From positions 1 through 24,824 of the IMG/VR virus record IMGVR_UViG_2534681992_000035: a stretch of DNA of 24,824 nucleotides, one strand, 5' to 3'. Position numbers: made by a program. Positions 12,001 through 18,000 of the stretch are shown piece after piece; within the stretch, counting starts at the first letter, position 1, and each line of letters starts with the position of its first letter. The DNA comes from a virus (lineage: Duplodnaviria; Heunggongvirae; Uroviricota; Caudoviricetes).

Positions 12001-15000
12001 TATCTTTAAGAAAAGGGACTTCAACCTCATCATCACTTAGAGGCGTGTGCTCATCCCACGACTCTATCTTCCCCCATTCGGATTTTGGTGGAATAGATGG
12101 TTTCTTGTTCTCTGCCCTCATAGAACCTACACCAGAACTTAACCATTCCGGTGTAACACCGAGAGCATTAGCGAGATCGACAATTTTCGTTGTTCCTCTT
12201 GCATTCCCCGATGCTATTCGCCAAATGGTCGGTTGAGCCATGTTTGCTGCCTTAGCCAACTGAGCTTGGCTCATTCCCATTTCGTACATTGCAAAGTTGA
12301 GCCTATCTGCAAGGGTTCTCAACATGCTCATTTGTGATTTCGACATAAATATAGCCTCCGCTATTACATTGTAGATGCGTTCTATAAGTGTGTCTATTGC
12401 ATGGTGGAATAGGTGTTGCTATTATTTTTTGATAGAAAAAGCAATTGTTAGGTGTGTTTTATGAAATCAGCGATTGAGAAAGCAATAGATATTGCAGGGG
12501 GCGTAAATGCATTAGCTCGCGCCGTTGGGGTCAAACAGCCATCTGTTTCCCGATGGAGAAAGATTGGACTTGTAGGGGTGGAGCATGTTCCAGACGTTTC
12601 TGCCGTAACAGGGATTCCCGCTCATGAGCTTAGGCCAGATAAGCCAAAACTTTTCCCACACCCAAGCCTAGCGCGCACGGAAGATGGGCAGAGTGATTCA
12701 TCAGAAATGTCCACGCGATGAACGGTTACTGAACGAAAAAAGAAAAGCCGGGCCGCACTCCGTCAGCCCGACTTATTCTGATTAGTAAGGGGATTTCATG
12801 ATGATCAATAAACAAAAATTAGTCAACCCTGAAAACTTGCCAGTTATTGAGTGGCAGGGAGTACGTGTAGTTACCACCGAAACGTTGGCGGCGGGATATG
12901 GAACAACGCCAATCCGTATACAACAGAACTACATTCGAAACGAAGATCGTTTCGTTGAGGGTAAACACTTTTTCAAAATCAGCGGTGATGAGCTGAAATC
13001 TTTCCGACTATCTTTTAGCGAGTCGGTTAATAAACATACAACATCACTTGTCCTCTGGACAGAACGCGGCGCTGCCCGCATGTCAAAAATCGTCGATACA
13101 GACGAGGCCTGGTCGTTCTTCGAAAAAATGGAGCAGGCGTATTTTCGTAAAGCAACGCCTTCTTCAAACACTATTCCAGACTTTGACGATCCGATCGCTG
13201 CTGCTGAAGCGTGGATTGAAGCCAAAAAATCCGAACGCCTTGCTCTCGGGTATGCAGAGCGTCAGGCTCGCTACATCAGCAAACTCGAAAGCCATCTCGC
13301 CGATGGCATCACTCCTGTGCAGTTCTGCAAACAGCTCAACGGTGTAAACACTCGTCAGATTAATGCGTTCCTTGAAGAGCGTAACTGGCTGTATGACGAC
13401 CGTCCGGAGGCTATGTATCCGCGCTGGCGTGTAAAAGCGTATGCACGTGACCAATACCTGACTGAGCGTTCTGGGCAGGTTGAGCAGGAAAACGGGGAAA
13501 TGCGCGAGATTTTCAAACCACTCCTGAAGAAAAAAGGTGCCGCCTGGTTATATCGCCATTATCTGAACGGTGAACTACCGATGAAGAAAACATGGGATGG
13601 GCTGTTTACCCATAACACTGAGCTCGCGAATCTTTTACAGGAGAACAAATAATGCAAACCAAGACGTGTGTAACTGGTGATGTCGATCTGAAACCTTGCC
13701 CGTTCTGCGGAAATCCGGAAGTACAACTCATTGAGGTGAAATATTTTCTGGATGGCGATGATGGTTATTACGTCGCATGTACTTGCTGTAACGCAAACCA
13801 GATCCCTGATTCGAAAGAACGTGCTGTTCATGACTGGAATCAGCGCGAAAACGCGGATTGACGGCGAGTAGGTACAAAATGATCCGCAACCAACATATTG
13901 ATTCTGCAATTTCGGGACGTTACACTGTTCCAGCACCTTATAAAGCGGGTGCCGGGATTGGAACCCCGGAATTGATCGAGGCGATATACGACGCGCCAGC
14001 GTCTTTTTTATCGTCCGCGCTCACGCACGCCAGAATTATGGTGGGCTGGGCAGGGGAGCCGAAAGGCTCGCCGGTTTCCTTGATCGCCGGTAGTTCCAAC
14101 CCTGTTCAGTCCGCCACCAGCGAGCTTGGAACCTCCGGTGGTGGAAGTATTTCACCGATCAAGGAGGCTGCCATCATGGCTACTGTCCCAACTTCCCCAT
14201 TCCTCAAAATCGAAGTCGTCAACGGCAAGGCCGTTATTTTCTCTCTGCATGTTGCCTGTCATTTCAAGCGCATGCACCAGAACATCGTCGACAAAATCGA
14301 GTATCTGAACTGCTCGCGCGAGTTTTTTACCCGTAATTTCATACCGGGTACTTGTCACATCTATGGTGACTCTTTGCATGGTTATTACATCACCCTTGAT
14401 GGCCTGATGATGCTTCAGCTTGGGTTAAGTCTCCGCACAATGCGGTACTACGAGAGCTGTATTGATGCATTCCATGAAGCTGAAACCGTCCAGGTACATT
14501 CCGCTTTCCGTCGTCATCAACGGGAGGTGCACCTATGATCCGCTACCTGAATATTGATTCTGCACTTTTGGAACGTTACACTGTCTCTGCACCTTATAAA
14601 GCGGGTGCCGGGATTGGCGTCCTGAAATTCGCACATGCGCATAACCGCGCTTCAGCGGTTTTTTTGCGCACGTTTCCTCACATCCAAATTATGGTGGGGC
14701 GTGCAGGGGCATCGAAAGATGCGCCGGGGTCATGTGCGACCGGTTACGCCAACCCTGTACGTCTCACCACCTCTGTGATTGGCGTCCCATGTGGTGAGTT
14801 TTCAAAATTCGCACATGAGGATGTCACTATGGCAACCACCCCTACCCACCCATTCCTCAAAATTGAGATTATTAACGGTAAGGCCGTTATTTTCTCCCTG
14901 CATGTAGCCTGCCATTTCAAGCGCATGCACCAGAACATCGTCGACAAAATCGAGTACCTGAACTGCTCGCGCGAATTTTTCACCCGCAATTTCATACCGG

Positions 15001-18000
15001 GTACTTATCACATCTATGGTGACTCTTTGCGAGGTTATTACATCACCCTTGATGGCCTGATGATGCTTCAGCTTGGGTTAAGTCTGCGCACAATGCGGTA
15101 CTACGAGAGCTGTATTGAAGCATTCCATGAGGCAGAAACCAGCGTGAATCATACCGCTTTTCGCCGTAATCAATGGGAGGCGCGCCATGTGTAATAACCA
15201 TTATTCAGACACCTCTGTTACGGTAATTAAAACCCTGATGGATGCACTGATTGACATCTCTGTTATCGCAGATATGGCGCATAAACACGCCACCAGTGAA
15301 ACAGAATATGCCGGGGCTGTCGTTCCTCACTCACTGGCTGTTATGCAAATTAGCGCCGATCAGGCGCTGGAAACAGCCAGCAAAATGCTCATGGCTGATG
15401 TGCGGGAGGTACATCCATGATTCGCCGCCTCGTTAATTCTCTGTATCACCGATACAACCGTTGCCCCCGTGTGGGGCAGTGGTTCGCCACCAGCAACGGT
15501 CACGTTCTGCGGGTTTGCCTAGTCAGCACTGAAAGCCAGAAAGTTGTCTGCCAGGTTCAGGGACGTACTCATACCCTGAGTTATCCGCTGGTGGCGTTTC
15601 AGTCCGGAAAAATGTTTAAACGCCTGGGAGGTGGCTATGCGTCCGTCTGATCTTCTGCTCGATTTTGGACATCCGGTTGCTTATTACCCAGGGCTCGTTA
15701 AATACATGGGAAGTCCGCACGCTGTTATTTTCTTTGGTCAGATTTTTTACTGGCAGGATAAAGCACATGCAGCGGAAGGCGTACATAAAACGCGTGAAGA
15801 GATACAACACGAAACCGGACTTACATTTGAACAACAGGCTGTAGCGCGTAAGCATCTTGTGTCCAGAGGCATTTTGGTTGAAACCAACAAGCGTCTTGAG
15901 CACAAAATGTTCTACCGTATAGATTGTGAGCGCCTTAATGAAATTATCAATGAAAACAATCAGTTTTCCCGAAATGGGGAAACCCGTTTTCGGGAAACTG
16001 TAAAACCCAATTTCGCGGAGGAGGGAAAGCCTTCACCGCGGACACGGGAAACCCCTCGCCGCGGAGAAGGGAAAACCAATTTCGATCTTACAGAGAATAC
16101 AACAGAGATTACTTCAGAGAATACTACAGAGAGTAAAAACACTATTGGCGCATCCGCTGATGCGTCTGCACCAGCACGTTCTGCCCGACAGGAATATTCA
16201 CCGGAATTTGAACAGGCCTGGCAGGAATATCCCAAACGTGCTGGTGGCAATTCCAAGTCAGCAGCCTTCAAAGCCTGGAAAGCCCGTATCAGGGAGGGAA
16301 TAAAACCGGAGACCATGCTTGATGGTGTGAGACGTTATGCCGCCTGGGTACGTGCTACAGGAAATACCGGCACACAGTTCGTGAAGCAGGCTGCGACGTT
16401 CTTTGGACCCGATCGTCACTTCGAAGATTTCTGGCAACAGCCAGCCGCTCCCGGAGGTGGGCGACAGCGACAGATAGATATCCTGTCTGGTCTTGGTGCC
16501 ATGTCTGACGAATTCGGTAAATCCAGTGACAACTTAACATTCTGAGGTGACAGCGATGATGACGTTTAACCTGCGTGAACAACAAACAAGACTACAGGCG
16601 CGGATGGATGAGTTACGGTCTGAGATGGCGTTTGCGGAGACTGGGGAAAAACCGTGGCCTTATCGTTCCTGCCGGATGCGTGAAGGTCGCGGATATTGCG
16701 AAAAACATGGCGAATATCACACGCATATTCTGGTGTGGGGGGATCGTAATGGCGAGGACAGAGAGAAAATTTCACACTGCCCTCATTGCCTGAGTGCTGA
16801 AATCAACGATGTGATTATGGAGTTGTCGTCCCTGAAGGCGGAAGAACTGACTGATAACGCCGGAATTGCACTGCGTTTTCGTGACTGTGAGTTTGAAAAC
16901 TATCAGGAGATTAATCCTGACGCAGCCAGAAATCTTGCTGCCTGTCGTCGCTATGCCGAAAACTGGGCGGATGTTCTGGAGAACGGCACAAATCTCGTGC
17001 TGACTGGCAGTTGTGGCACCGGTAAAAATCACCTGGCGGTTGCGATGGCAAAATATGTCATCCGCAACTATCTCGCCAGTGTTGAGATCACCGACGTGAT
17101 GCGCCTGACCCGGGCTGTGAAAAACTGCTGGCGGAATGACAGCGAAAAAACTGCGGATGAGGTGATTGAGCATTATGCATCACTGGATCTGCTGATTATC
17201 GACGAAGTGGGTGTCCAGTTTGGTAGCGCGGCGGAAATGGCCATTCTTCAGGAAATTATCAATGCCCGGTACGAAAGCATTCTGCCAACCATCCTGATCA
17301 GCAATCTTTCACCGAAGGCGTTGTGGGCATACATCAGTCCACGTATTGCTGACAGGGTTACGGATGGTGGCCGTAACCTGTTGTCCTTTAACTGGCCCAG
17401 CTACCGTGCACATGCCGGAGGTGTGGCAGCATGATCAGCCAGAAAAGCCCGGTCTGGCGTAACGATGATCTGGAAGGTGCTGTTATTGGCGCATTCTTTT
17501 TGCGTGGGGCAGATCCGGAAGTGATGGATATTCTGGCCACACTACCGGCGGACGTTTTTTCTGTACGACCGTACCGGGATATATACACAGGCATCTGCAG
17601 ACAGGCCCGTGTGTCCGGCGTGATTGATCCTGTGCTGTTGTGCAATGAGATGCCGGAACTTGCCCCGGTGATTACTGATACCGGGCGTAAAACCTGGGTG
17701 AAGTCATCTCTGGAACACTATGTTGCAGCACTGCGACGCAATGCCGCACTGCGCGATGCAGAAAAAACACTGACCGAAGCATTACAGAATTTACGTGATG
17801 CGCATACCTGTGAAGCAGCCGAGGATGCTCTGAAGGATGCTCAAAACATGATGGCCTCATTGTCGATGGAAAAAGGCGCAATTCAGCCGGTACATATTGA
17901 TGATGTGCTTCCGGAAGTGGTTGACCGTGTTGAATGCCGGAATCAGGGGCTGGAGAAATCCAGGACGTTGATGACCGGTATTGATGAACTGGACGCAAAA

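What the first reader, a model, noticed from the sequence alone, without database searches (positions are those of the whole stretch)
13879..15194. Tandem duplicated Rha-family genes with a conserved N-terminal extension and ~291-bp near-identical direct repeats
Seen in sequence: two adjacent 219-aa paralogs with overlapping stop/start. The C-terminal Rha-like domains are highly similar (14197..14487 vs 14850..15140), the middle segments are diverged, and both share an N-terminal RYTV(P/S)APYKAGAGIG motif. The Rha-like domain is C-terminal rather than N-terminal, which is atypical as far as I recall. The direct repeats are substrates for homologous deletion or expansion.
Basis: seen in the sequence. 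Interest (0 to 1): 0.45.

Follow-up and report, generated by a model that had tools for sequence, protein, structure and literature searches.

The report
Tandem antisense-RNA immunity switches, not protein extensions
The two "duplicated Rha genes" in this E. coli prophage are two copies of a known phage RNA switch (a small decoy RNA, an antisense RNA and its target on the ribosome-binding site of a small Rha-type regulator gene), and each copy is tuned to recognise only its own target.

Summary
Two 219-codon ORFs (13879-14538, 14535-15194) overlap by ATGA, and their 3' halves are about 90-93% identical.

The interpretation needs revising. The "conserved N-terminal extension" is not a conserved protein domain. 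In each unit it holds:
- a promoter-like site;
- an IsrK/SeqA-type small RNA with its own terminator;
- a C4/CI-type antisense RNA, both RNAs scoring above the Rfam gathering scores;
- the antisense target sites, one of which covers the Shine-Dalgarno sequence of an internal ATG (14176; 14829).

That ATG starts a 120/121-aa protein whose divergent Rha-like domain sits at the usual N-terminal position.

The two C4 RNAs keep the same fold: 9 of 27 pairs differ and none is broken. Their targeting loops differ, and each loop matches only its own unit's sites. Across 109 related units the loops and targets co-vary.

The architecture matches the P4 immunity region (PLE-seqA-cI-seqC, nested kil/eta genes), P1 immI, and Gifsy-1 isrK-orf45-anrP.

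The long ORF shows no codon periodicity but stays open far more often than controls. It may therefore be translated through, as P4 eta is.

Arrays of two or three units, always with different specificities, recur in relatives. I found no description of them in the papers I could search.

The parts
13879..14538 (+). Unit 1, long ORF (219 aa; PGAP 'ash family protein'). It is eta-like and spans the promoter-like site, both RNA genes, the target sites and the nested Rha gene.
   Evidence: Pfam Phage_ASH matches aa 15-106. The same Pfam family matches aa 37-161 of the 214-aa P4 ORF (8812-8168) that I take to be eta; those residues overlie the P4 C4/cI hit and part of the isrK/seqA hit.
13898..13926 (+). 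Unit 1 promoter-like site, TTGATT-17 nt-TACACT, ending 6 nt before the isrK model start. It is the positional equivalent of P4 PLE and Gifsy-1 PisrK.
   Evidence: Read from the sequence. It matches 8/12 consensus positions, below the 9/12 threshold of the scan. A hexamer pair scoring at least 8/12 sits at the same place in 91 of 96 related units, with varying sequence.
13933..14009 (+). Unit 1 IsrK/SeqA-type small RNA. It carries target copy a1 (13958-13964, TTGGAAC) in a hairpin loop, target copy b1 (13973-13981), and an intrinsic terminator (13990-14009).
   Evidence: Rfam RF01394, 63.9 bits against a gathering score of 50. Terminator scan. Complementarity to the C4 loops.
14034..14121 (+). 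Unit 1 C4/CI-type antisense RNA. b' is at 14072-14086 (hairpin-2 loop UUUCCUUGAUCG), a' at 14093-14099 (GUUCCAA), and the 5' AUG at 14038-14040, in frame with the long ORF.
   Evidence: Rfam RF01695, 84.6 bits against a gathering score of 45. Fold and covariation.
14126..14170 (+). Unit 1 downstream targets. a2 is at 14126-14132 (TTGGAAC). b2 is at 14156-14170 (CGATCAAGGAGGCTG) and covers the Shine-Dalgarno AAGGAGG (14161-14167).
   Evidence: b' pairs with b2 over 15 positions (12 Watson-Crick, 3 G-U) and a' pairs with a2 over 7 nt. The site positions are conserved across 109 units.
14176..14538 (+). Unit 1 nested short gene: a 120-aa stand-alone Rha-like domain protein. It is the positional equivalent of P4 kil, P1 icd/ant and Gifsy-1 anrP.
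   Evidence: Shine-Dalgarno plus ATG. Third-position excess of substitutions, 4/4/21. PHROG 995 E 5e-54, PHROG 518 E 1.7e-12, PF09669 25.9 bits.
14535..15194 (+). Unit 2, long ORF (219 aa; 'ash family protein'). Its ATG overlaps the unit 1 stop (ATGA) and is preceded by GGGAGG.
   Evidence: Pfam Phage_ASH matches aa 15-104.
14554..14582 (+). Unit 2 promoter-like site, TTGATT-17 nt-TACACT.
   Evidence: Read from the sequence. Positional conservation across related units.
14589..14665 (+). Unit 2 IsrK/SeqA-type small RNA. a1 is at 14614-14620 (TTGGCGT), b1 at 14629-14637 (TCGCACATG), and the terminator stem at 14643-14660 followed by a T run.
   Evidence: Rfam RF01394, 62.3 bits. Terminator scan. 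Complementarity.
14687..14774 (+). Unit 2 C4/CI-type antisense RNA. b' is at 14730-14739 (UCAUGUGCGA), a' at 14746-14752 (ACGCCAA), and the 5' AUG at 14691-14693, in frame with the long ORF.
   Evidence: Rfam RF01695, 75.1 bits. Compared with unit 1, 9 of 27 pairs differ, 6 of them on both sides, and none is broken.
14779..14821 (+). Unit 2 downstream targets. a2 is at 14779-14785 (TTGGCGT). b2 is at 14809-14818 (TCGCACATGA) and overlaps the Shine-Dalgarno GAGGA (14817-14821).
   Evidence: 10 Watson-Crick pairs between b' and b2, and 7 between a' and a2.
14829..15194 (+). Unit 2 nested short gene: a 121-aa stand-alone Rha-like domain protein.
   Evidence: PF09669 30.0 bits against a cut-off of 29.9; PHROG 518 E 7.8e-14; TIGR02681 E 1.1e-9, below its cut-off. 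39% identity (E 4e-20) to a bona fide Rha domain.

Best explanation
Each ~655-bp unit is a self-contained antisense-RNA control module of the P4 immunity / P1 immI / Gifsy-1 isrK type. It sits in the early-right operon of a lambdoid STEC prophage, between cro/ant/lar and the replication genes.

Shown here:
- Each unit contains an IsrK/SeqA-type RNA that ends at an intrinsic terminator and carries target copies a1 and b1.
- Next comes a C4/CI-type RNA whose hairpin-2 loop (b') and junction (a') are complementary to a1/b1 upstream and to a2/b2 downstream.
- b2 lies on the Shine-Dalgarno sequence of a nested 120/121-aa Rha-domain gene.
- The two units share the RNA fold and an ~90% identical Rha gene. 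Their a' and b' sequences differ, each with matching changes in its own four target sites, so they are predicted not to cross-react.

Inferred by homology with P1, P4 and Gifsy-1:
- In the lysogen a constitutive internal promoter makes the short IsrK-type RNA and, by read-through, a precursor from which RNase P releases C4.
- C4 pairs with a2/b2, blocks translation of the Rha gene and favours premature termination, so the Rha regulator stays off.
- The IsrK-type RNA, which carries decoy sites, modulates this: termination control in P4, activation in Gifsy-1.
- C4 can act in trans on any co-resident or incoming phage that has the same a/b code.

More tentative:
- When transcription enters from the early promoter upstream, ribosomes translate the long 219-codon ORFs. 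These are packed and coupled with their neighbours (ATGA overlap, GGGAGG before 14535).
- That translation would melt the terminators and the C4 fold, as described for P4 eta, giving read-through to the replication genes and an Ash-Rha fusion product.
For: RNA identity:
- Rfam gathering-level hits to isrK and C4 in both units.
- The same pair of hits, in the same order and similar spacing, in P4 and Gifsy-1.
- Between the two units, 9 of 27 C4 pairs differ, 6 by double changes, and none is broken. 13 of the 16 unpaired differences fall in b' and a'.
- RNAalifold on 60 C4 sequences gives 15 of 25 pairs with compensatory changes.

Targeting:
- Unit 1 b' pairs with b2 over 15 positions covering AAGGAGG. 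Unit 2 b' pairs with b2 over 10 Watson-Crick pairs abutting GAGGA. a' matches a1 and a2 over 7 nt in each unit.
- The b' loops have no cross-unit matches at the homologous sites. One isolated unit-1-type a site (TTGGAAC) lies at 14568-14574 in unit 2.
- In 109 unique related units with 54 loop/junction combinations, the cognate b' has at least 8 nt of perfect complement downstream in 98 of 109. Non-cognate pairings reach that in 25 of 1090. Site positions are fixed.
- b2 ends 7-11 nt before the ATG in 91 of 97 units.

Not a protein domain:
- Codon-position counts are 39/32/31 in the extension and 4/4/21 in the Rha part.
- Column entropy is 0.81/0.80/0.79 in the extension and 0.25/0.26/0.51 in the Rha gene.
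- The frame relation between the C4 AUG and the gene varies: 60 in frame, 34 out of frame.
- The same RNA module sits before unrelated genes: Rha, Bro-N, ORF6N, KilA-N, Icd-like.

P4 parallel:
- The 214-aa P4 ORF that I take to be eta contains the isrK and C4 hits, matches Pfam Phage_ASH over them, and ends in an Icd-like Kil domain that starts ...EAAIMATTLTP. Unit 1 of the window reads ...EAAIMATVPTSP at the same place, and the MAT start is shared by unit 2.
- The P4 eta/kil mechanism is summarised in PMC10111431.

Other support:
- Gifsy-1 mechanism: PMC4825925. C4 mechanism and RNase P processing: PMC5320573, PMC5499578.
- Long-ORF openness: 85/97 on the forward strand, 14/97 on the reverse strand, about 20% in shuffles.
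- The leaders are strongly structured (z -4.5 and -5.0), and the unit 1 minimum-energy fold pairs b' with b2/SD in cis.
Against: - No expression data were available. Transcripts, RNase P processing, Hfq binding and repression are all inferred.
- The promoter-like hexamers match only 8/12 and were not called by the promoter scan.
- The direction of control is uncertain. P1 and P4 show repression by C4/CI. In Gifsy-1 the short IsrK RNA activates translation, and an ORF starting at the C4 AUG (orf45) must be translated.
- The related loci were collected with a pattern that fixes the hairpin-2 stem and flanks. That stem's invariance is therefore built in, and the sample is biased towards enterobacterial relatives.
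- The Q antiterminator of this prophage is annotated as frameshifted, so the prophage may be defective and the module may no longer matter for induction.
- Openness of the long ORF could partly come from conserved, stop-poor RNA sequence. In units whose inner C4 length shifts the frame, only 12 of 21 stay open.
Confidence: 0.85

Rival explanations
1. Plain tandem paralogues. Each ORF encodes a genuine two-domain protein: an N-terminal 'Ash' protein domain plus a C-terminal Rha domain. The N-terminal conservation reflects protein function.
For: - PGAP annotates both ORFs as 'ash family protein'.
- Pfam PF10554 scores 58.6 and 47.7 bits, above its cut-off of 26.
- The frame is open in both copies and in most relatives.
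- The Stx-phage literature treats Ash as a protein domain of unknown function (PMC8951638).
Against: - There is no codon periodicity in the extension, either between the two copies (39/32/31) or across 76 units (0.81/0.80/0.79). The adjacent Rha gene shows it clearly.
- The conserved nucleotides are explained by two Rfam structures with compensatory changes.
- Loop lengths vary by 1-2 nt, and the frame relation to the downstream gene varies.
- The extension occurs in front of unrelated genes.
- The Pfam family coincides with the P4 cI/seqA RNA region.
Confidence: 0.05
2. RNA modules only. The RNA switches are real, but the long 219-codon ORFs are never translated. They stay open only because conserved, G+C-rich structured RNA happens to lack stop codons in one frame. 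Only the short 120/121-aa proteins are made.
For: - There is no amino-acid-level constraint in the extension.
- The internal ATGs have strong Shine-Dalgarno sequences.
- In 12 of 97 units no forward frame is open, and in Gifsy-1 the gene is in a different frame from the C4 AUG ORF.
- When the inner C4 length shifts the frame, only 12 of 21 units stay open.
Against: - A forward frame is open in 85 of 97 units, against 14 of 97 on the reverse strand and about 20% of shuffles. At the level of 80%-identity clusters the figures are 15 of 19 against 4 of 19.
- ATG 14535 is preceded by GGGAGG and overlaps the upstream stop, and the whole operon is packed for translational coupling.
- P4 eta translation is reported to be functional (summarised in PMC10111431).
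- Gifsy-1 orf45, which starts at the C4 AUG, is translated and needed (PMC4825925).
Confidence: 0.35
3. Recent in-situ duplication followed by drift. The two units are a young tandem duplicate, their RNA parts are decaying, and the different loops carry no functional meaning.
For: The genes are tandem and about 90% identical in the Rha part. The prophage has a frameshifted Q gene.
Against: - Every loop change is matched at four separate sites per unit, and no stem pair is broken.
- The unit 1 RNA part is 96% identical to the single unit of phage phiP27. The unit 2 gene is 97-98% identical to units of another array. The two window units are only 70% (RNA part) and 90% (gene) identical to each other.
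- A-type and B-type units recur in 12 non-redundant arrays. Within arrays the non-cognate complement is at most 6 nt in 28 of 28 pairs.
Confidence: 0.05

Closest known systems
Satellite phage P4 immunity region (PLE - seqA - cI/CI RNA - seqC, with nested kil and eta genes)
   Same: - Same order of parts, with isrK-type and C4-type Rfam hits inside one long ORF of similar size (214 aa against 219 aa).
- The Pfam Phage_ASH match lies over the RNA region in both.
- A nested short gene starts right after the downstream target, at ...EAAIMAT(T/V)... in P4 and in unit 1 of the window, with the MAT start shared by unit 2.
- A promoter-like site lies inside the long ORF.
- In the published model, CI pairs with seqA and seqC and causes premature termination, and translation of eta from an upstream promoter overrides it (PMC10111431, citing Forti 1999 and Sabbattini 1995).
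   Different: - The nested gene here is a Rha-domain protein, not the Icd-like Kil of P4.
- The host element is a lambdoid prophage, and the module sits in its cro-to-replication operon rather than in a satellite.
- There are two units in tandem with different specificities. P4 has one.
Gifsy-1 isrK-orf45-anrP locus of Salmonella (Hershko-Shalev et al. 2016, PMC4825925)
   Same: - Lambdoid prophage context.
- isrK (79.3 bits) followed by C4 (69 bits), then an antirepressor-type gene.
- The short RNA ends at its own terminator and some transcripts read through.
- The experimentally translated orf45 starts at the same AUG at the 5' edge of C4 that is present here (14038, 14691).
   Different: - In Gifsy-1, orf45 stops at the start of anrP and is out of frame with it. 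Here the same frame runs on into the Rha gene.
- anrP is an ORF6N protein, not Rha.
- The locus lies next to the Q-like gene antQ rather than in the early-right operon.
- The published mechanism is activation by the short IsrK RNA. The C4-like RNA there (STnc1160) was not assigned a repressor role.
- Gifsy-1 has a single unit.
P1/P7 immI operon (c4 RNA - icd - ant1/ant2; Citron & Schuster 1990)
   Same: - A C4 RNA with a' and b' elements that pair with a1/b1 upstream and a2/b2 downstream, with b2 at the ribosome-binding site of the first downstream gene.
- A few nucleotide changes in the loops set heteroimmunity (as described in PMC5320573).
- A GGU at the 5' stem edge, where RNase P cuts in P1/P7.
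   Different: - I did not re-analyse P1 itself, so the comparison rests on the Rfam model and the literature.
- The downstream genes differ: icd/ant in P1, a stand-alone Rha domain here.
- Two specificities sit side by side in one phage here. In P1 and P7 one specificity exists in each of two phages.
Rha family phage regulatory proteins (Pfam PF09669, TIGR02681)
   Same: Significant HMM matches over the whole domain, and 39% identity to a strong family member. With the internal start the domain is N-terminal, as is usual.
   Different: These are divergent and short, consisting of the domain alone at 120/121 aa. They score below TIGR02681's cut-off, and unit 1 scores below Pfam's cut-off. There is no C-terminal effector module.

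Membership tests
Rfam RF01695 C4 antisense RNA | Covariance-model score at or above the gathering score (45 bits), full-length match | tested here: met
   84.6 bits (14034-14121) and 75.1 bits (14687-14774), model positions 1-87 of 87.
Rfam RF01695 C4 antisense RNA | Long closing stem enclosing two hairpins, kept through compensatory changes | tested here: met
   Between the two units, 9 of 27 pairs differ, 6 on both sides, and none is broken. Across 60 sequences, 15 of 25 pairs show compensatory changes. The hairpin-2 stem was fixed by my search pattern, so it says nothing.
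Rfam RF01695 C4 antisense RNA | a' and b' elements complementary to a2/b2 downstream, with b2 at the ribosome-binding site, and to a1/b1 upstream | tested here: met
   All eight sites were found in the window at homologous positions. The b' loop co-varies with its downstream target across 109 units: 98 of 109 cognate against 25 of 1090 non-cognate at 8 nt or more. b2 ends 7-11 nt before the ATG in 91 of 97 units.
Rfam RF01695 C4 antisense RNA | Stable ~77-nt RNA released from a precursor by RNase P; represses the downstream gene | not testable with these tools
   Only the GGU motif at the 5' stem edge (14040-14042, 14693-14695) and the ..CACC 3' end can be seen. There are no expression data.
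Rfam RF01394 isrK (P4 seqA equivalent) | Covariance-model score at or above the gathering score (50 bits) | tested here: met
   63.9 bits (13933-14009) and 62.3 bits (14589-14665).
Rfam RF01394 isrK (P4 seqA equivalent) | Ends at a Rho-independent terminator | tested here: met
   Terminator-like sites at 13990-14003 and 14643-14660, each followed by a T run.
Rfam RF01394 isrK (P4 seqA equivalent) | Own promoter immediately upstream | tested here: inconclusive
   TTGATT-17-TACACT in both units matches only 8/12 and was not called by the scan. A pair scoring at least 8/12 sits at the same place in 91 of 96 relatives, with varied sequence.
P4 eta/kil-type nested genes | Long ORF that starts upstream of the internal promoter and spans seqA, cI and seqC, with a shorter gene nested in the same frame after seqC | tested here: met
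   Window ORFs. The 214-aa P4 ORF (8812-8168) that I take to be eta has the RNA hits inside it and an Icd-like C-terminus. Aligned.
P4 eta/kil-type nested genes | The long ORF is translated from upstream transcripts, and this overrides termination | not testable with these tools
   Indirect evidence only. A forward frame is open in 85 of 97 units against 14 of 97 on the reverse strand. There is an ATGA overlap and a GGGAGG before 14535.
Pfam PF10554 Phage_ASH, taken as a protein domain | HMM score at or above the cut-off (26 bits) | tested here: met
   58.6 and 47.7 bits.
Pfam PF10554 Phage_ASH, taken as a protein domain | Sequence conserved because of selection on the amino acids | tested here: not met
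   No third-position excess: 39/32/31 between the copies, and 0.81/0.80/0.79 across 76 units. In P4 the family's match coincides with the C4/cI hit and the 3' part of the isrK/seqA hit.
Rha family (Pfam PF09669 / NCBIfam TIGR02681) | HMM score at or above the curated cut-off | tested here: inconclusive
   PF09669 gives 25.9 bits for unit 1 (below the 29.9 cut-off) and 30.0 bits for unit 2 (just above). TIGR02681 gives 33.4 and 38.4 bits against a cut-off of 45.95.
Rha family (Pfam PF09669 / NCBIfam TIGR02681) | Homology to undisputed members over the whole domain | tested here: met
   PHROG 518 'Rha-like' gives E 1.7e-12 and 7.8e-14. BLASTP gives 39% identity over 109 aa, E 4e-20, to a protein that scores 106 bits on PF09669.

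The most novel reading that the evidence does not exclude
Lambdoid and Stx-type prophages may carry arrays of two or three orthogonal antisense-RNA switches, each with its own two-part (a' x b') address and each guarding a near-identical Rha regulator gene.

Because C4-type RNAs act in trans, such an array would let one prophage silence, or sense, the antirepressor modules of several classes of co-resident or incoming phages. That would amount to an RNA-based, combinatorial heteroimmunity network in polylysogenic STEC.

The 'Ash' reading frame would be kept open only so that ribosomes can erase the switch during lytic growth.

One corollary follows. The 'Ash domain' of Pfam and RefSeq, found in thousands of phage proteins, would be the translation of RNA genes rather than a protein domain.
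Probability: 0.3. Interest if true: 0.65.

Novelty: new variant of a known kind. Interest (0 to 1): 0.5.

Why it matters
- **Annotation.** RefSeq lists these loci only as 'ash family protein' and no RNA features are annotated here. A study of Stx-phage regulatory regions treats 'Ash' as a protein domain of unknown function (PMC8951638). Recognising the region as a P4/P1-type RNA immunity module gives a testable function to a very common phage 'domain'. The two-unit query (13652-15420, which includes lar and the next gene) has matches in 1473 of 5426 complete E. coli genomes.
- **Biology.** The module sits between cro and the replication genes of prophages related to Stx phages, so it probably influences induction. 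For Stx phages induction controls toxin release.
- **Design principle.** Tandem units share a fold and differ only in loop/target codes. They form a natural set of orthogonal RNA regulators: 54 loop/junction combinations were seen among 109 units. This set could be used to study how RNA-based immunity specificities diversify, and it could be reused in synthetic circuits.

Tried and rejected
- Full-length RNA duplex folding of C4 against the upstream and downstream regions unfolded everything and did not discriminate clearly. I replaced it with ungapped complement searches restricted to the unpaired C4 elements.
- The consensus promoter scan found nothing at the expected place, because the hexamers score 8/12 against a 9/12 threshold. 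I therefore used positional conservation across relatives. The promoter remains inferred.
- My first automatic choice of downstream start codon picked ATGs inside b2 in a few units, including window unit 2. I corrected this by taking the ATG with the longest ORF.
- A sequence search of the short protein against PDB chains found nothing.
- I did not run structure prediction or the large protein-database searches. The Rha question was settled well enough by three HMM libraries and one pairwise comparison, and the result would not have changed the conclusion.
- The primary P4 paper (Forti et al. 1999, PMC94026) is not held in the library. The P4 eta/kil mechanism is cited through the summary in PMC10111431 and from my own knowledge.
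- I could not locate the other two related places in the same chromosome (one search reports 3 places), so I could not test whether co-resident prophages share either specificity.
- I rejected the idea that the ORF6N/KilAC antirepressor upstream (12798-13652) is related to the short Rha proteins: BLASTP gives E 1.1.

Full report
**1. The observation**

- The window is 100% identical to part of the chromosome of Shiga-toxigenic E. coli 2013C-3264 (NZ_CP027544.1).
- The region lies in the early-right operon of a lambdoid prophage. The gene order is: cI-like repressor (minus strand), cro-like gene, ORF6N/KilAC antirepressor (12798-13652), Lar (13652-13861), the two ORFs in question, two small ORFs, then O-like, DnaC-like and DnaB-like replication genes and a frameshifted Q.
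- The two ORFs are each 219 codons (13879-14538, 14535-15194) and overlap by ATGA.
- Direct repeats are real: 300 nt at 90% (14164-14463 vs 14817-15116) and 131 nt at 76% (13879-14009 vs 14535-14665).
- The arrangement is not an assembly artefact. Forty complete E. coli genomes hold at least 80% of the two-unit stretch, and independent viral contigs carry arrays of two or three units.

**2. What the 'N-terminal extension' is**

A scan of the whole window against Rfam at gathering thresholds gave, in each unit and on the + strand:
- an isrK match (13933-14009 at 63.9 bits; 14589-14665 at 62.3 bits; gathering score 50);
- about 25 nt further on, a C4 antisense RNA match (14034-14121 at 84.6 bits; 14687-14774 at 75.1 bits; gathering score 45).

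Several independent tests say this part evolves as RNA, not as protein:
- Differences between the two units fall evenly on codon positions in the extension (39/32/31). From the internal ATG onward they concentrate at third positions (4/4/21 over 14176-14487).
- Across 76 related units, mean column entropy by codon position is 0.81/0.80/0.79 in the extension. Across 22 related Rha genes it is 0.25/0.26/0.51.
- Of the 27 base pairs of the C4 model, 9 differ between the two units, 6 by changes on both sides, and none is broken. 13 of the 16 differences at unpaired positions lie in the hairpin-2 loop and the junction.
- On 60 diverse C4 sequences, RNAalifold recovers the Rfam fold with compensatory changes at 15 of 25 pairs. 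The hairpin-2 stem was fixed by my search pattern, so it is uninformative.
- Each isrK match ends in a terminator-like hairpin plus T run.

This is a -10-like hexamer (TACACT) plus the first hairpins of the isrK-type RNA.

**3. The real protein genes**

- Each unit has an internal ATG with a good Shine-Dalgarno sequence: AAGGAGG-N8-ATG at 14176 and GAGGA-N7-ATG at 14829.
- The resulting 120- and 121-aa proteins are 101/112 identical over their first 112 residues.
- They match Rha-type regulators over the whole domain. PHROG 518 gives E 1.7e-12 and 7.8e-14. PF09669 gives 25.9 and 30.0 bits against a cut-off of 29.9. TIGR02681 gives E 4e-8 and 1e-9 but is below its cut-off.
- The short protein is 39% identical (E 4e-20) to the Rha domain of a relative that scores 106 bits on PF09669.
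- They are therefore divergent, stand-alone Rha domains. With the correct start the domain is N-terminal, so the 'atypical C-terminal Rha domain' came from reading the long ORF.

**4. The antisense logic**

I searched only the unpaired parts of each C4 for complements.

| Element | Unit 1 | Unit 2 |
|---|---|---|
| b' (hairpin-2 loop) | 14072-14086, CGGTTTCCTTGATCG | 14730-14739, TCATGTGCGA |
| b2 (downstream) | 14156-14170, CGATCAAGGAGGCTG; 15 pairs (12 Watson-Crick, 3 G-U), covers the Shine-Dalgarno | 14809-14818; 10 Watson-Crick pairs, overlaps the Shine-Dalgarno |
| b1 (upstream, in the isrK RNA) | 13973-13981 | 14629-14637 |
| a' (junction) | 14093-14099, GTTCCAA | 14746-14752, ACGCCAA |
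| a2 / a1 | TTGGAAC at 14126-14132 and 13958-13964 | TTGGCGT at 14779-14785 and 14614-14620 |

- Neither C4 has comparable matches at the homologous sites of the other unit.
- This is the a'/b' - a1/b1 - a2/b2 scheme described for P1/P7 c4, in which b' occludes the ribosome-binding site and a few loop changes set heteroimmunity (as summarised in PMC5320573).
- To test it beyond two sequences I scanned IMG/VR with a C4 core pattern. This gave 109 unique units with 54 loop/junction combinations.
- The cognate loop has a perfect complement of at least 8 nt downstream in 98 of 109 units. Non-cognate loop/target pairings reach that in 25 of 1090. The site positions are nearly fixed: a2 about +23 and b2 about +54 after the core, a1 about -95 and b1 about -79 before it.
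- b2 ends 7-11 nt before the start codon in 91 of 97 units.
- The genes behind the module vary: Rha, Bro-N, ORF6N, KilA-N, Icd-like and small unknowns. This is the expected cargo for this kind of switch.

**5. The closest characterised systems**

- *P4.* The isrK and C4 models hit seqA (8692-8615) and cI (8507-8420). Both lie inside a 214-codon ORF (8812-8168) that I take to be eta. Its C-terminus is the Icd-like Kil domain and starts ...EAAIMATTLTP, against ...EAAIMATVPTSP in unit 1 of the window.
- Pfam Phage_ASH matches that ORF at aa 37-161, which covers the C4/cI hit and part of the isrK/seqA hit.
- According to the summary in PMC10111431 (citing Sabbattini 1995 and Forti 1999), a constitutive promoter inside eta makes a transcript that is quickly terminated through CI/seqA interactions and is processed to CI. 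Kil can be made on read-through. Full-length Eta is translated only from an upstream late promoter, and that translation prevents termination.
- *Gifsy-1.* isrK (34316-34240), C4 (34214-34131) and the ORF6N antirepressor gene anrP (34076-33513) lie in the same order. The experimentally translated orf45 (34210-34073) starts at the AUG on the 5' edge of C4 (PMC4825925). The same AUG is present here (14038, 14691), and here it is in frame with the Rha gene.
- In Gifsy-1 the short IsrK RNA activates translation of the read-through transcript. The sign of IsrK's effect here therefore cannot be deduced from sequence.

**6. Is the long ORF meaningful?**

- There is no amino-acid-level constraint (section 2), yet the frame is open more often than controls predict.
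- The roughly 218-nt stretch from upstream of isrK to just before b2 is free of stops in at least one forward frame in 85 of 97 unique units. The figures are 14 of 97 on the reverse strand and about 20% of shuffles. At the level of 80%-identity clusters they are 15 of 19 against 4 of 19.
- In 72 of 97 units the open frame is the frame of the downstream gene.
- Where the inner C4 length is not a multiple of three, a different 5' frame is open in 12 of 21 units.
- ATG 14535 overlaps the preceding stop and follows GGGAGG, and all genes from the antirepressor to the replication genes are packed end to end.
- I read this as moderate support, roughly even odds, for a P4-eta-like role: translation as such, from early-promoter transcripts, melts the terminators and the C4 fold.
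- The rival view, that the frame is open as a by-product of conserved stop-poor RNA, is not excluded.
- Both leaders are strongly structured (z -4.5 and -5.0). In unit 1 the minimum-energy fold pairs b' with b2 and the Shine-Dalgarno in cis. In unit 2 the Shine-Dalgarno region sits in a local hairpin.

**7. The tandem arrangement**

- The two units are not each other's closest relatives. The unit 1 RNA part is 96% identical to the single unit of phage phiP27. The unit 2 gene is 97-98% identical to units of a three-unit array (L028). The window units share only about 70% (RNA part) and 90% (gene) with each other.
- Two backbone types, which I call A and B, recur. Arrays occur as A-B, B-A and A-B-A.
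- In 12 non-redundant arrays the cognate b'/b2 complement is 8-11 nt in 22 of 25 units. Every within-array non-cognate pairing is 6 nt or less (28 of 28).
- a' and b' types also reassort. For example, b' TTTCCGTATGCG occurs with four different junctions.
- The arrays therefore look like collections of orthogonal switches, assembled and resized by recombination through the conserved Rha gene. They do not look like a young duplication.

**8. Novelty and limits**

- The unit itself belongs to known RNA families and to a known kind of phage immunity module.
- IsrK-C4 pairs in lambdoid Salmonella prophages were noted before (PMC3632133). CI/seqA relatives inside Bro-type genes were noted in PICIs (PMC10111431).
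- In the searchable literature (28 papers mention 'c4 antisense') I did not find tandem arrays with mutually orthogonal loop/target codes. I also did not find a statement that the 'Ash domain' of Stx-phage Rha/Ash proteins (PMC8951638) is this RNA module.
- All functional statements are inferred from sequence, covariation and homology. No expression data were available.
- My sample of relatives is biased by the search pattern towards enterobacterial phages.

Noticed in passing
window 14568-14574: A unit-1-type 'a' site (TTGGAAC, complementary to the a' of the unit 1 C4) lies inside the spacer of unit 2's promoter-like site. It would be present only on transcripts that read through from unit 1 or from the early promoter. 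It could be chance (a 7-mer) or a cross-unit link.
   Followed up: no
window 23450-23663 (+) and 23665-23724 (-): Rfam hits above gathering score to the sRNA STnc100 (190.7 bits) and, immediately adjacent on the opposite strand, to AgvB, the anti-GcvB sRNA known from EHEC prophages (56.6 bits against a gathering score of 56).
   Followed up: no
L028 (IMGVR_UViG_2671181028_000005) 9707-11110, minus strand: A three-unit array (A-B-A backbone types, 656-bp spacing) has three different b' loops and three different a' junctions, each matched by its own targets. Arrays of two or three units occur in 14 of the related loci fetched.
   Followed up: partly
L124 (phage P4) 8168-8812 and 7888-8175, minus strand: Pfam PF10554 'Ash' matches the P4 eta/cI region (82 bits). 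It does not match the epsilon derepression protein, which hits PF25738 instead. A survey of P4-like satellites (bioRxiv 10.1101/2021.03.30.437493) lists PF10554 as its marker for epsilon. That marker may actually detect the adjacent RNA immunity region.
   Followed up: partly
L001 11434-11780 (NZ_CP027544.1 1661841-1662187): The Q antiterminator gene of this prophage is annotated as frameshifted, so the prophage may be defective for late gene expression.
   Followed up: no
window 13858-13861: A TTG that opens the same reading frame as long ORF 1 overlaps the Lar stop codon (TTGA). This could couple translation of the long ORF to lar. PGAP instead starts the ORF at ATG 13879.
   Followed up: no
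window 12798-13652: A full-length ORF6N + KilAC antirepressor gene lies directly after the cro-like gene, with no C4 module in front of it. In Gifsy-1 and several fetched loci, by contrast, an ORF6N gene is the cargo of the C4 module.
   Followed up: no
related units from L004-L123: The a' and b' elements reassort. The same b' loop occurs with up to four different a' junctions and the reverse also holds, giving 54 combinations among 109 units. This suggests a two-part address that recombines.
   Followed up: partly
L125 (Gifsy-1) 34131-34214, minus strand: The Rfam C4 hit coincides with the region that the Gifsy-1 paper calls orf45/STnc1160, and orf45 starts at the C4 5' AUG. The paper compares IsrK to P4 seqA and STnc1160 to CI but does not treat STnc1160 as a C4-family RNA.
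   Followed up: partly
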